A DNA stretch of 64,000 bases from Escherichia phage HMD-P3, in the sequence record PQ462667.1; one strand, given 5' to 3'. The stretch's first letter is position 1, and the number at the start of each line of letters is the position of its first letter. Under the pieces are notes generated by a model. That model was not told the DNA's origin, did no database searches, and saw only the letters and a list, made by a program, of their open reading frames with translations. This document shows positions 24,757-37,920 of this stretch, in pieces. A program made the translations under genes and the position numbers.

Positions 24757-24832
24757 TGGTAGTTAGTAGTGGATTTGAACCACTGTAGTCGCTCCGTATG
24801 AAGGAGGTGCATAACCACTCTGCCAACTAACT
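24757..24832 (-). tRNA. tRNA, anticodon CAT (Met or Ile2)
   Basis: Hand fold: acceptor agttagt/actaact, T-loop ttcaaat, anticodon loop ttCATac, encoded CCA. Confidence 0.6.
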
Positions 24833-26797: not shown

Positions 26798-27165
26798 AAT
26801 TGAAAACTCGCAGGGTTAGCGAAACCTCCCTCAATTAGCATGTTCTAGAATACTAATCAAGTTATCTCCTATTGCACGCAGCTCAAGACGAGTACGAATT
26901 TTCAATTGTGGCGGCTCTCCGAAACTCTTCTACTCTAGCCTTAGCAGCTTACTCCCGAACGCATGTCGGGGAAGTCTTACTAAGAGCATCAAATAGCACC
27001 GTTACACTTTGAGCCATAGATATATCAAGAAGTAGAAGGACTTGAACCTTCACGAGATAGACCATTTATCTCAGCCGCTTTATGAGGTATGTTGTAGGGA
27101 GTGGATGTTCCCTATAAACCTTTTAGGCAGCCCCGTCTACCGATTCCGGCATACTTCAAGAACTT

Positions 27166-27834: not shown

Positions 27835-27925
27835 TGGCGGAAGAGGAGAGATTTGAACTCTCAAGCCGTTTTACCAGTCAGCCACTTTCCAAGCGGTTTT
27901 CGTCGCCAATTCGATTTGCTCTTCC
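27835..27925 (-). tRNA. tRNA-Ser (GGA)
   Basis: Long variable arm; anticodon loop ttGGAaa; 3' GCCA. Confidence 0.6.
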
Positions 27926-28700: not shown

Positions 28701-28985
28701 AAACTCTTTAGTTTACTAAGGCTATTAGCTCGGCGTAACTACAGCACCTTCGCTTCAAGCGGAAGGAACCGCGTCATCTCGCAAACCCGATACACTATTC
28801 AGTTGCCGCTGAATCTAGTGGACTAATCTAGAACTTCTCCCGAATCATAGGGATCGTGCTTTTTGGCAGCCAGTCCTAGGTCGAGCTAATACCTTAGTGA
28901 ACTATGATGAGGATTTCTCCTCATCAATTTATATAAATATTATAACAAGAAATTAAGCATCAAGCAACTGCATTTTTCTTGAAAT

Positions 28986-29064
28986 TGGTGGGTCGCCTGG
29001 GACTCGAACCCAGAACCTTCCGATTAAAAGTCGGATGCTACTAAACCTATTGAGCTAGCAACCC
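28986..29064 (-). tRNA. tRNA-Lys (TTT)
   Basis: Anticodon arm tccga-ctTTTaa-tcgga; T-arm ctggg-ttcgagt-cccag. Confidence 0.7.
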
Positions 29065-29073
29065 AAAATAACT

Positions 29074-29151
29074 TGGTAGCGGGTTCCAGTACTGCCCTGG
29101 ACTTACTTAGCTTATGAGACTAAGAAGAACTCTATGCCTCCCACCCGCAAT
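29074..29151 (-). tRNA. tRNA-like element, anticodon CAT, with non-canonical T-loop (GGCAGUA) and unpaired 1:72
   Basis: Anticodon arm ttagt-ctCATaa-gctaa, D-stem gagg/cttc, T-stem tccag/ctgga, CCA encoded. Confidence 0.35.
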
Positions 29152-29155
29152 TGTT

Positions 29156-29231
29156 TGGTCAGTGCGGCAGGACTCGAACCTGCGACCCGAAGCATCCAAG
29201 GCTCCCACGCTACCAACTGCGCTACGCACTG
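29156..29231 (-). tRNA. tRNA-Pro (TGG)
   Basis: 76 nt; anticodon loop ctTGGat; T-arm gcagg-ttcgagt-cctgc. Confidence 0.7.
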
Positions 29232-29240
29232 TTAATTCTT

Positions 29241-29438
29241 TTATTGTGGAGGAATATTAATAATTCGTCCATCTACACAATAAACGGTACTAGGAATCGT
29301 ACTATATATGTAGAAATTCTTTATATTACTCTCTCCGCCACAGAAATTTTTAGCAAATTCATACTCTTTATTAATGGTTGAGTCAAATTTAAAACAACCA
29401 GTAAGTAGGAATACAGATAGTAATAAAACTTTCTTCAT
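29241..29438 (-). CDS. small lipoprotein
   Basis: MKKVLLLSVFLLTGC (signal peptide with lipobox). Confidence 0.5.
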   Translation of the reverse strand: MKKVLLLSVFLLTGCFKFDSTINKEYEFAKNFCGGESNIKNFYIYSTIPSTVYCVDGRIINIPPQ

Positions 29439-33553: not shown

Positions 33554-33631
33554 TGGTGGCTCCCCGAGGATTCGAACCTACGTACCTTCCGGTTATGAGC
33601 CGGGTGCTCATACCATATGAGCTTGAGAACC
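33554..33631 (-). tRNA. tRNA, anticodon CAT (Met or Ile2)
   Basis: Acceptor ggttctc/gggagcc (G-U pairs), D-stem gctc/gagc, anticodon loop ctCATaa. Confidence 0.55.
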
Positions 33632-37340: not shown

Positions 37341-37844
37341 TTTAAGTATTTTTAAGAACTCTCGTAAAAACTCTTAAAAATACAGACGATACCGGGAGAG
37401 TCATAAGTCTCACTCATTAAGTATTTCAAGACAAAATACGGTAACGTCTACTATTTTCCAGTTTAAGTCAGGGTGACTTAGTGGTTATGTCCTGCGGTAT
37501 ATTGAGGACTCGGTTAGGCTCGGGGTCATGACTTCCCGCCTTTTGCTGCTACTCAACAGGAGTTATCGCGAATTACCTGTGCTATTGTGCACCATTAGTG
37601 ACATCTCTCATGCCAGCATTTCCCACTTTGTGGATAGCTTGAAAAACTACTCCGATATGGAGAAAGAACTTCACTATCCTAGAATACCTTCTAAAGTTCT
37701 TCTTTAGCCTGGACATAGTTAAATCGTAATAAAACTATTCAGCAGACTGGTTGGTTAGTCTGGAACCAACTACCGCGTGGTTTAGGCAGTGCGCAACTAA
37801 CCTCGGAAGCTTTTACTTTAAAAGCATCAGTTATCCAGTTCTTA

Positions 37845-37920
37845 CCGACCATAGGATTCGAACCTACATCTTCCACCAGTTACGGCTTGATAATACCAAT
37901 TATACTAGGACGGCAGTGTT
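37845..37920 (-). tRNA. tRNA-like element, no encoded CCA, anticodon not resolved
   Basis: T-arm gtagg-ttcgaat-cctat and 6/7-bp acceptor found; anticodon arm not convincingly foldable by hand. Confidence 0.3.

What the first reader, a model, noticed from the sequence alone, without database searches (positions are those of the whole stretch)
29074..29151. tRNA-like gene with CAU anticodon but a non-canonical T-loop and unpaired 1:72
Hand folding gives a cloverleaf with anticodon loop ctCATaa, D-stem gagg/cttc, T-stem tccag/ctgga and encoded CCA, but the T-loop is GGCAGUA rather than TTCRANY and position 1 does not pair with 72. An unpaired 1:72 is an initiator-tRNA hallmark; the odd T-loop could mean a pseudogene or a tRNA with altered ribosome or EF-Tu interaction. 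Two canonical CAU tRNAs are also present (24757-24832, 33554-33631).
Basis: partly seen in the sequence, partly recalled or inferred. Interest (0 to 1): 0.5.

Follow-up and report, generated by a model that had tools for sequence, protein, structure and literature searches.

The report
Hidden phage initiator-like tRNA, altered elbow
This is very probably a working tRNA gene of a T5-like phage whose corner ("elbow") is built from different, co-evolving bases than in ordinary tRNAs, so standard tRNA finders miss it and its many relatives in other phages.

Summary
Window 29149-29074 (minus strand) folds into a 76-nt cloverleaf with anticodon CAU, T-loop GGCAGUA, U1·U72, A73 and an encoded CCA. 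ARAGORN and the Rfam tRNA model miss it. It is not a pseudogene. It occupies the site where phage T5 carries its annotated "initiator tRNA fMet", and it shares that gene's acceptor and anticodon arms but not its D or T arms.

It belongs to a large phage/metagenome tRNA(CAU) lineage (94 unique sequences collected). A covariance model built without any T5-like sequence finds it at 72.7 bits (E=1e-17). In that lineage the elbow contacts co-vary: G18·U55 <-> A18·G55 (p~1e-18), U54·A58 <-> G54·G58 or A54·U58, and G19-C56 is kept. The GGCRGYA loop recurs on at least 15 different compensated T-stems. ARAGORN detects 1/18 of this class against 37/38 canonical members.

The acceptor and D-stem features (1:72 mismatch, G2-C71, C3-G70, A11:U24, A73, G30-C40) resemble bacterial initiator tRNA, but the three consecutive G-C pairs are absent. 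No expression or charging data exist. Verdict: a real tRNA with an alternative elbow, probably initiator-type; a new variant of a known kind.

The parts
29074..29149 (-). Complete tRNA gene X (76 nt, tRNA numbering 1-76; window coordinate = 29150 - n)
   Evidence: Sequence; leave-out family model R1 gives 72.7 bits, E=1.4e-17 over 29149-29077
29143..29149 (-). Acceptor stem 5' strand, U1 G2 C3 G4 G5 G6 U7
   Evidence: Pairs with 29084-29078; U1·U72 is unpaired; 2-7 match 66-71
29078..29084 (-). Acceptor stem 3' strand, A66 C67 C68 C69 G70 C71 U72
   Evidence: across the family 2:71 is GC in 92/94 and 3:70 is CG in 94/94
29074..29077 (-). Discriminator A73 plus encoded CCA
   Evidence: A73 in 83/94 family members and CCA encoded in 59/94
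29141..29142 (-). G8 G9 linker (G8 where U8 is near-universal)
   Evidence: GG in 92/94, but this was fixed by the search pattern
29125..29140 (-). D-arm: stem GAGG (29140-29137) / UCUU (29128-29125); loop CAUAGAGU (29136-29129) with A18=29133 and G19=29132; no GG
   Evidence: D-stem 100% paired in the family; DT57C G10->A gives A10-U25; A18 co-varies with G55
29107..29123 (-). Anticodon arm: stem UUAGU/GCUAA (A29-U41, G30-C40, U31·G39), loop CUCAUAA, anticodon CAU at 29116-29114; C26 at 29124
   Evidence: anticodon stem 96.2% paired with all 5 pairs compensatory; G30-C40 in 84/94
29102..29106 (-). Variable region GUAAG
29085..29101 (-). T-arm: stem UCCAG/CUGGA, T-loop G54 G55 C56 A57 G58 U59 A60 (29096-29090)
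   Evidence: the GGCRGYA class has 18 unique members on at least 15 different T-stems; T-stem 98.9% paired
29156..29231 (-). Upstream neighbour tRNA-Pro(UGG), 6-nt spacer to X
   Evidence: ARAGORN, Rfam 62.7 bits
28986..29064 (-). Downstream neighbour tRNA-Lys(UUU), 9-nt spacer after X
   Evidence: ARAGORN, Rfam 60.6 bits
29471..29499 (-). Sigma-70-like promoter (TTGCTA-17-TATAAT, 10/12) upstream of a 65-aa ORF (29241-29438), then tRNA-Pro, X and tRNA-Lys; same position as T5 promoter P13a
   Evidence: This is a consensus match only.

Best explanation
X is a selectively maintained tRNA gene. It is the alternative allele of the phage T5 'tRNAfM(CAU)' locus. It is co-transcribed with tRNA-Pro and tRNA-Lys and cut out of the precursor like its neighbours.

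It folds into a normal cloverleaf, but its elbow uses a different, co-evolved set of tertiary contacts. A18·G55 replaces G18·Psi55. G54·G58 replaces the T54·A58 reverse-Hoogsteen pair. The G19-C56 pair, whose outer face the ribosome (L5, L1 stalk) and RNase P read, is kept. With no U54 or U55, it cannot receive the usual m5U54 and Psi55 modifications.

By identity it is most likely a methionine-accepting, formylatable, initiator-type tRNA: CAU, A73, U1·U72, G2-C71, C3-G70, A11:U24 and G30-C40. Its 1:72 mismatch would keep it off EF-Tu. That could also explain why an unusual elbow is tolerated or favoured in this tRNA specifically.

Shown: the cloverleaf, family membership, the tertiary covariation, its invisibility to standard tools, and locus orthology with T5 tRNAfM. 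Inferred: expression and processing, the geometry of A18·G55 and G54·G58, Met charging, formylation and use in initiation.

My sub-confidences: real functional tRNA-type RNA about 0.9; alternative elbow about 0.8; initiator-type function about 0.55.
For: 1. Locus. X sits 6 nt after tRNA-Pro and 9 nt before tRNA-Lys on the same strand, behind a promoter-like site. At this site T5 has 'tRNAfM(CAU), initiator tRNA fMet'. X and the T5 allele share positions 1-7, 28-42 and 66-72. The 27:43 pair differs by a compensatory C-G to U-A change. The D, variable and T arms are unrelated but still form helices.

2. Spread. 56 phage records in two genera carry X at >=98.7% identity and none annotates it. About 370 records carry the T5 allele.

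3. Family. 94 unique sequences from IMG/VR, metagenomes and GenBank phages fit the cloverleaf. 93.3% of cells are paired against 73.6% in shuffles. 437 cells have double-sided changes against 118 in shuffles (0/500) and at most 122 in slid controls.

4. Membership. The leave-out model R1 scores X at 72.7 bits, E=1.4e-17.

5. Elbow covariation. All 46 members with G55 lack GG in the D-loop, and 40 of 45 with U55 have it (Fisher p=1.6e-18). MI is 0.875 bits for 18:55 and 1.147 for 54:58, against 0.02-0.04 for controls. A model-made alignment reproduces this (33/3/4/36, p=1.6e-13). On an NJ tree, 18 and 55 each change about 23 times but jointly only 26 times. Minimal pairs are L183/L188 and L171/L226. 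C56 is kept in 90/94, and the three U56 members have A19.

6. The GGCRGYA loop sits on at least 15 different T-stems. One member (phage J2-1) is split in the anticodon loop by an ORF related to the tRNA-fMet-intron endonuclease.

7. Identity. PMC5389676 states that the 1:72 mismatch with 2:71 and 3:70 is the major Fmt determinant and that the middle G30-C40 pair suffices. X has these features, and G30-C40 is in 84/94 members. X matches verified E. coli tRNA-fMet at 35/65 positions against 19 (Met) and 23 (Ile2). The window's other two CAU tRNAs have a paired 1:72. Companion tRNA-Met genes in other arrays are elongator-like.
Against: No expression, processing, aminoacylation or formylation data exist for X or for any non-canonical member.

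The three consecutive G-C pairs that define initiator anticodon stems are absent: X has A-U / G-C / U·G, and 31:39 is Y:R rather than R:Y.

U1, G8 and C14 differ from bacterial initiators.

Thermodynamics does not favour the cloverleaf: -18.7 against an MFE of -24.0 kcal/mol, and the MFE z-score is only -1.17.

The family was collected with a pattern that fixes the 5' 13 nt and TCATAA, so conservation there is by construction. My parser picks the best-pairing register, which inflates the percentage paired.

Identity among T5-like phages says little, because the flanking tRNA-Pro is equally conserved.

The Fisher and MI values are not corrected for phylogeny, and the NJ tree rests on about 60 columns.

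The geometries of A18·G55 and G54·G58 are inferred.
Confidence: 0.72

Rival explanations
1. X is a functional decoding tRNA but not an initiator. It would be an elongator tRNA-Met, or a tRNA-Ile2 whose C34 is converted to lysidine.
For: All CAU tRNAs share the CUCAUAA loop. The anticodon stem lacks the three G-C pairs. 28/94 family members have a U1-A72 pair. The T5 'fMet' label is an annotation, not an experiment.
Against: The window already has two other CAU tRNAs with a paired 1:72, at the positions of T5 tRNAM and tRNAI2. 1:72 is never G-C in the family. A11:U24 is in 93/94, although A11 was fixed by the pattern. X matches E. coli Met and Ile2 worse than fMet. It has G4-C69/G5-C68, not the C4-G69/C5-G68 that I recall as the TilS determinants (from memory).
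Confidence: 0.15
2. X is a tRNA-shaped RNA with a role outside decoding. Examples: a decoy for a tRNA-targeting host nuclease or enzyme, a processing punctuation mark in the polycistronic tRNA precursor, or one of the T5-type 'stable tRNA-like RNAs'.
For: The T5 record lists several stable tRNA-like RNAs of unknown function in this cluster. Phage tRNAs are known counter-defence tools, and VapC-LT2 targets tRNA-fMet. A general tRNA model does not recognise X.
Against: The anticodon loop, A73, the encoded CCA, the acceptor determinants and G19-C56 are all kept. A mere processing signal or decoy would not obviously need all of them. The canonical T5 allele at the same site is an ordinary tRNA.
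Confidence: 0.08
3. X is a decaying pseudogene of the T5 tRNAfM gene that has lost its T-loop and D-loop.
For: ARAGORN and Rfam reject it. No record annotates it. The MFE fold is not a cloverleaf.
Against: All four helices are intact. The only variant seen strengthens a pair (G10·U25 to A10-U25). The same GGCAGUA loop occurs on unrelated, compensated stems in distant phages, with a matching D-loop change. The leave-out model gives E=1e-17.
Confidence: 0.04
4. The cloverleaf is a chance fold in a spacer between two tRNA genes.
For: The MFE z-score is only -1.17.
Against: Homology to the T5 allele, the family model score, and the covariation.
Confidence: 0.01

Closest known systems
Phage T5 tRNAfM(CAU), gene T5t14 (NC_005859 32428-32505, annotated 'initiator tRNA fMet')
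   Same: Same locus between tRNA-Pro and tRNA-Lys. Identical acceptor stem including U1·U72. Identical anticodon loop and nearly identical anticodon stem. CCA is encoded.
   Different: T5 has U8 A9, D-arm GAUC/GAUC with GG in the loop, T-loop UUCGAUU and discriminator U73. X has G8 G9, GAGG/UCUU, no GG, GGCAGUA and A73. ARAGORN calls the T5 allele tRNA-Met but does not call X.
Bacterial initiator tRNA-fMet (E. coli metZWV/metY)
   Same: 1:72 mismatch, G2-C71, C3-G70, G4-C69, G5-C68, G6-C67, G9 G10 A11 G12, A11:U24, A73, loop CUCAUAA and G30-C40 (determinants per PMC5389676).
   Different: U1·U72 instead of C1xA72. Only the middle one of the three G-C pairs is present. G8/C14 replace U8/A14. 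G54 G55 and A18 replace T54 Psi55 and G18.
Natural initiator tRNAs with reduced 3GC (au/GC/gu) in mycoplasmas and alpha-proteobacteria (PMC5389676)
   Same: A-U at 29:41 and G-C at 30:40, with a wobble at 31:39. The paper shows that the middle pair suffices in E. coli.
   Different: X has U31·G39 (Y:R), not G31·U39. Those tRNAs have canonical elbows.
tRNAs without G18G19/TPsiC: tRNA-Pyl and type II mitochondrial tRNAs (PMC7609411)
   Same: They lack the canonical D-loop/T-loop signature. D. hafniense tRNA-Pyl also has G8.
   Different: Those have lost or remodelled G19-C56 and often have shortened loops. X keeps 7- and 8-nt loops and G19-C56 and swaps specific partners (18:55, 54:58). It is also encoded by a bacterial virus.
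T5/T4 'stable tRNA-like RNAs' (T5 RNA1, RNA2, RNA3; T4 species 1 and 2, the latter from memory)
   Same: Small RNAs inside phage tRNA clusters that escape tRNA finders.
   Different: X is a full 76-nt cloverleaf with an anticodon loop, a discriminator and CCA, and it is allelic to a bona fide tRNA.

Membership tests
tRNA (general, Rfam RF00005) | Four-helix cloverleaf with a 7-nt anticodon loop, U33 and purine 37 | tested here: met
   loop is C32 U33 C34 A35 U36 A37 A38
tRNA (general, Rfam RF00005) | G18 G19 in the D-loop and T54 Psi55 C56 in the T-loop | tested here: not met
   X has A18 G19 and G54 G55 C56; only G19-C56 is kept
tRNA (general, Rfam RF00005) | Score at or above the family's gathering threshold (29 bits) | tested here: not met
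   No match even at E<=10; 0/15 GGC-class relatives are found
Bacterial initiator tRNA-fMet | No Watson-Crick pair at 1:72 | tested here: met
   U1·U72; across the family U·U 56, U-A 28, U·G 9, never G-C
Bacterial initiator tRNA-fMet | G2-C71 and C3-G70 (Fmt determinants); A73 | tested here: met
   determinants per PMC5389676; A73 as a determinant is from my memory
Bacterial initiator tRNA-fMet | A11:U24 in the D-stem | tested here: met
   (93/94, but A11 was fixed by the search pattern); its significance is from my memory
Bacterial initiator tRNA-fMet | Three consecutive G-C pairs at 29:41, 30:40 and 31:39 | tested here: not met
   A-U / G-C / U·G; only G30-C40 is conserved (84/94). PMC5389676 reports that the middle pair suffices.
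Bacterial initiator tRNA-fMet | Charged with Met, formylated, and used in the P site | not testable with these tools
   Needs biochemistry or genetics
T5 tRNAfM locus (orthology) | Synteny promoter-ORF-tRNA-Pro-[X]-...-tRNA-Lys, with shared acceptor and anticodon arms | tested here: met
Phage UGCGGGU-GG-GAGG tRNA(CAU) lineage (defined here) | Significant score with a covariance model built without X | tested here: met
   72.7 bits, E=1.4e-17
Phage UGCGGGU-GG-GAGG tRNA(CAU) lineage (defined here) | Elbow state obeys the 18:55 and 54:58 covariation (A18 with G55; G54 with G58) | tested here: met
tRNA-Ile2 (lysidine, TilS substrate) | Paired G1-C72 and C4-G69/C5-G68 in the acceptor stem (E. coli determinants, from memory) | tested here: not met
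   X has U1·U72, G4-C69 and G5-C68; 23/65 identity to verified E. coli Ile2
tRNA pseudogene | Broken helices and unconstrained substitutions | tested here: not met
   All helices are intact; the one variant seen is pair-strengthening; the loop is conserved on compensated stems

The most novel reading that the evidence does not exclude
The G54/G55 (and A54) elbows are an adaptive device rather than neutral drift. On this reading, many phages carry their own initiator-type tRNA with an elbow lacking the U54/U55 that host T-loop enzymes (TrmA, TruB) or elbow- or T-loop-directed defence nucleases would recognise, while keeping the G19-C56 face needed by RNase P and the ribosomal P and E sites. Because this class is invisible to ARAGORN and Rfam, phage-encoded initiator tRNAs would be far commoner than surveys conclude (for example 'phages generally avoid encoding tRNA-fMet', PMC10264068). 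They could secure or bias translation initiation during infection, for instance when the host initiator tRNA is cleaved by VapC-type toxins.
Probability: 0.25. Interest if true: 0.8.

Novelty: new variant of a known kind. Interest (0 to 1): 0.62.

Why it matters
1. Annotation. A whole class of phage tRNA genes goes unannotated. That includes 56 GenBank T5-like genomes; ARAGORN detects 1/18 GGC-class and 0/13 AGC-class members, and Rfam 0/15. Censuses of phage tRNA repertoires, and conclusions drawn from them about initiator tRNA, are therefore biased.

2. tRNA structure. U55 is described as universally conserved, and T54·A58 closes the T-loop motif. Here nature supplies dozens of matched variants (A18·G55; G54·G58; A54·U58; A19-U56) that show which elbow contacts can be exchanged and which (G19-C56) cannot.

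3. Phage biology. If it is an initiator, T5-like and many uncultured phages bring their own start-codon tRNA. This can be tested directly with existing E. coli initiator-tRNA genetics.

4. Engineering. Elbows that cannot be modified at 54/55 may be useful scaffolds for orthogonal initiator tRNAs.

Tried and rejected
- ARAGORN and Rfam at E<=10: no call at X, so 'a canonical tRNA at shifted boundaries' is rejected.
- MFE folding: gives a non-cloverleaf fold and a weak z-score, uninformative for a tRNA.
- IMG/VR scan with the D-arm 17-mer: apart from known T5-likes, only chance hits in coding DNA.
- IMG/VR scan with T-loop plus acceptor (GGCAGTANNNNNACCCGCT): 120 hits, almost all chance; only L123 and known T5-like genomes (L014, L150) parsed.
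- Genome-contig scan: 17 hits. Only four parse as family members, all in MAGs, so there is no sign of a cellular homologue.
- Plain MAFFT alignment (A1): mis-registers the D-loops. I replaced it with an N-padded structural alignment (A2) and a model-made one (A4).
- Literature searches for T5 plus T-loop and for G55 plus A18: nothing found.
- Group I intron test for the J2-1 insert: no Rfam intron match, so intron versus disruptive insertion stays open.
- Host association of the X allele: Salmonella phages make up 39/61 matching records for X against 234/408 for the T5 allele. This gives no support for a host-specific explanation.
- Coding alternative: only spurious ORFs that also cross tRNA-Pro.

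Full report
**What is there.** The window is a T5-like Salmonella phage, 100% identical over the region to phages SE11 and HMD-P5 (Tequintavirus, Demerecviridae). All its tRNA genes lie on the minus strand. Read on that strand, 29149-29074 is UGCGGGU GG GAGG CAUAGAGU UCUU C UUAGU CUCAUAA GCUAA GUAAG UCCAG GGCAGUA CUGGA ACCCGCU A CCA. This is a 76-nt cloverleaf with standard numbering: anticodon CAU, U1·U72, A73, encoded CCA, T-loop G54 G55 C56 A57 G58 U59 A60, and a D-loop without GG. It lies 6 nt after tRNA-Pro and 9 nt before tRNA-Lys. A sigma-70-like promoter and a 65-aa ORF sit upstream, at the position of T5 promoter P13a.

**Standard tools reject it.** ARAGORN tRNAs in the window but not this one. 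The Rfam tRNA model gives no match even at E<=10. The MFE fold is not the cloverleaf: the cloverleaf is -18.7 and the MFE is -24.0 kcal/mol, with z=-1.17. None of the 56 phage records that carry the element at >=98.7% identity annotates it.

**The same locus in T5.** In T5 and about 370 other records, the position after tRNA-Pro holds a canonical CAU tRNA. The T5 reference annotates it 'tRNAfM(CAU), initiator tRNA fMet'. X and that allele share positions 1-7, 28-42 and 66-72. The 27:43 pair differs by a compensatory change (C-G to U-A). The D-arm, variable region and T-arm have unrelated sequences that still form helices. Both alleles occur in Tequintavirus and Epseptimavirus, with different neighbours: with or without a 55-aa ORF, tRNA-Lys, tRNA-Val or an HNH-like ORF. 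So the locus is a recombination mosaic. The DT57C variant of X has G10->A, which turns G10·U25 into A10-U25. The window's other two CAU tRNAs, at the positions of T5 tRNAM and tRNAI2, have a paired 1:72.

**A wider lineage.** The 5' 50 nt of X, odd D-arm included, match annotated tRNA-Met genes in Klebsiella (Stephanstirmvirinae) and Aeromonas phages. Pattern scans of IMG/VR and metagenomes returned many relatives. A cloverleaf parser gave 94 unique sequences. About 40% have canonical T-loops (TTCRAYT). The others fall into recurrent classes: TGCRAUN (15), GGCRGYA (18, including X) and AGCRUNA (13). The GGCRGYA loop sits on at least 15 different, fully compensated T-stems; L039, for example, has GGCAGUA on AUGGG/CCCAU. 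Only 17 hits appeared in 185,579 species genomes. Four of them parse as family members, all in MAG contigs. Members lie in dense phage tRNA arrays, for example 24 tRNAs in 8.4 kb.

**Secondary structure.** On a structure-registered alignment (A2), 93.3% of cells pair, against 73.6% in shuffles. There are 437 cells with changes on both sides, against 118 in shuffles (0/500 reach the observed value) and at most 122 in slid controls. The T-stem is 98.9% paired with all five pairs compensatory, the anticodon stem 96.2% and the D-stem 100%. Two caveats apply. The parser chooses the best-pairing register. The 5' 13 nt and TCATAA were fixed by the search pattern.

**Tertiary covariation.** This is the key result. 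All 46 sequences with G55 lack GG in the D-loop, and 40 of 45 with U55 have it (Fisher p=1.6e-18). With positions assigned, 18:55 is A·G in 45 and G·U in 43 (MI 0.875 bits). 54:58 is U·A in 59, G·G in 18 and A·U in 13 (MI 1.147). 19:56 is G-C in 88, plus three A-U double changes. Control pairs give 0.02-0.04 bits. A model-made alignment that does not use my parser reproduces this (33/3/4/36, p=1.6e-13; G·G in 17; C56 in 73/76). On an NJ tree built from non-loop columns, positions 18 and 55 each need about 23 changes but jointly only 26; 54 and 58 need 21 and 19, and jointly 21. Close relatives form minimal pairs. L183 and L188 differ by G18->A with U55->G. L171 and L226 share the same T-stem and differ in the T-loop by exactly U54->G and A58->G. 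These are the contacts that build the elbow: the 54-58 reverse-Hoogsteen pair, G18 with the 'universally conserved' Psi55, and the G19-C56 pair whose outer face L5, the L1 stalk and RNase P read (PMC4810234). The natural reading is an alternative but equivalent elbow that keeps the recognised face. The geometry itself is inferred.

**Membership.** A covariance model built from 91 family sequences, with no T5-like sequence included, finds X as the best hit in the window: 72.7 bits, E=1.4e-17, full length. The next hit, the elongator tRNA-Met, scores 30.2 bits.

**Invisibility.** ARAGORN detects 37/38 canonical-loop members, 9/15 of the TGC class, 1/18 of the GGC class and 0/13 of the AGC class. 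Rfam at its gathering score finds none of 15 GGC-class members, although it finds over 100 neighbouring tRNAs.

**Identity.** PMC5389676 states that the 1:72 mismatch together with 2:71 and 3:70 is the major determinant for the formylase. It also states that, of the three anticodon-stem G-C pairs, the middle one (G30-C40) suffices and is essential, and that natural au/GC/gu initiators exist. X has U1·U72, G2-C71, C3-G70, A73, A11:U24, and A29-U41 / G30-C40 / U31·G39. G30-C40 is kept in 84/94 members, and 1:72 is never G-C. Against E. coli genes verified in the database, X matches tRNA-fMet at 35/65 positions (acceptor strands 5/7 and 5/7), Ile2 at 23 and elongator Met at 19. Companion tRNA-Met genes in other arrays are elongator-like. 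Phage J2-1 has a family member with a GGCAGUA T-loop, split in the anticodon loop by a PDDEXK_5 endonuclease ORF. Its only solved relative is 2OST, which I recall as I-Ssp6803I, the endonuclease of the cyanobacterial tRNA-fMet intron. Against an initiator role: there are no three G-C pairs, 31:39 is in the wrong orientation, U1, G8 and C14 differ from bacterial initiators, and there are no experimental data.

**Verdict.** X is not a pseudogene and not a chance fold. It is very probably a functional tRNA: the alternative allele of the T5 tRNAfM locus, and a member of a widespread phage tRNA(CAU) lineage that has repeatedly rebuilt its elbow with co-varying bases. An initiator-type function is the best-supported identity but is inferred. 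I found no description of this elbow class in the searchable literature. A 2020 review lists only tRNA-Pyl and mitochondrial tRNAs as lacking G18G19/TPsiC, and nothing matched G55 plus A18. A 2023 survey concluded that phages generally avoid encoding tRNA-fMet. I rate it a new variant of a known kind, of moderately high interest.

Noticed in passing
L297 (Pseudoalteromonas phage J2-1, MF988720 132500-135400, reverse strand): A family member is split in the anticodon loop (CTCATA | about 451 nt | ACCTAA). The insert is almost entirely a 135-aa PDDEXK_5 endonuclease ORF (Pfam 3e-26; PDB 2OST 9e-11). The 3' part carries T-arm GCTGG-GGCAGTA-CCAGC and the matching acceptor strand. There is no Rfam group I intron match, so whether it is an intron or a disruptive insertion is open.
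   Followed up: partly
window 33554-33631 (-): A CAU tRNA at the position of T5 tRNAI2(CAU). ARAGORN misses it and Rfam finds it at 40.3 bits. Its T-stem looks weak.
   Followed up: partly
window 27839-27925 (-), 27027-27158 (-), 37843-37914 (-): Three further tRNA-like stretches not called by ARAGORN. The first is a long-arm tRNA-like sequence ending in GCCA (19.7 bits to tRNA-Sec). The second is a tRNA match with a large insert (27.2 bits). The third is a 33.7-bit tRNA match about 500 nt beyond tRNA-Arg. T5 annotates 'tRNA-like stable RNAs' (RNA1, RNAX) in comparable places.
   Followed up: no
window 28986-29064 (-) and L003/L004: The neighbouring tRNA-Lys(UUU) is 79 nt with an unusual D-region. 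It exists as two very different alleles among relatives (60/79 identity), while tRNA-Pro and X are nearly identical. A T5-encoded tRNA is reported to neutralise the PARIS defence system (PMC11464382); that this tRNA is T5's tRNA-Lys is from my memory.
   Followed up: partly
L002, L005, L006, L011 against window 28950-29240: The Pro-X-Lys interval is a mosaic hot spot. A 55-aa ORF (T5.065) is present or absent, tRNA-Lys is absent in DT57C, tRNA-Val is present only in some, and PH204 has an HNH-like ORF inserted right after X.
   Followed up: partly
Family alignment A2, columns 8, 14 and 24: The lineage has G8 (not U8), and positions 14:21 co-vary as a Watson-Crick pair (U-A 67, C-G 12). So the usual U8-A14(-A21) tertiary contact is also replaced.
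   Followed up: partly
L170, L185, L206: Three members have U56 in the T-loop together with a D-loop UCGAA(A), that is A19. This is a double change of the G19-C56 elbow pair to A-U.
   Followed up: partly
L180 1358-1429, L241 7146-7218, L210 722-792, L181 245-326: Some contigs carry a second, sometimes tandem, related CAU tRNA with U1 but a different acceptor stem (UACUGGA, UGCUAGA, UGCGGGA). The lineage is therefore broader than the search pattern, and two initiator-like genes can coexist in one phage.
   Followed up: no
L175 4326-4973 (+): A ROOL RNA (292 bits) sits inside a metagenomic phage-like array of 24 tRNAs.
   Followed up: no
X 29140-29136 against 29120-29116: The D-stem 5' strand GAGGC can pair with G30-C34 (GUCUC) of the anticodon arm, and this gives the MFE fold. 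E. coli tRNA-fMet has the same potential (GAGC against GCUC).
   Followed up: no
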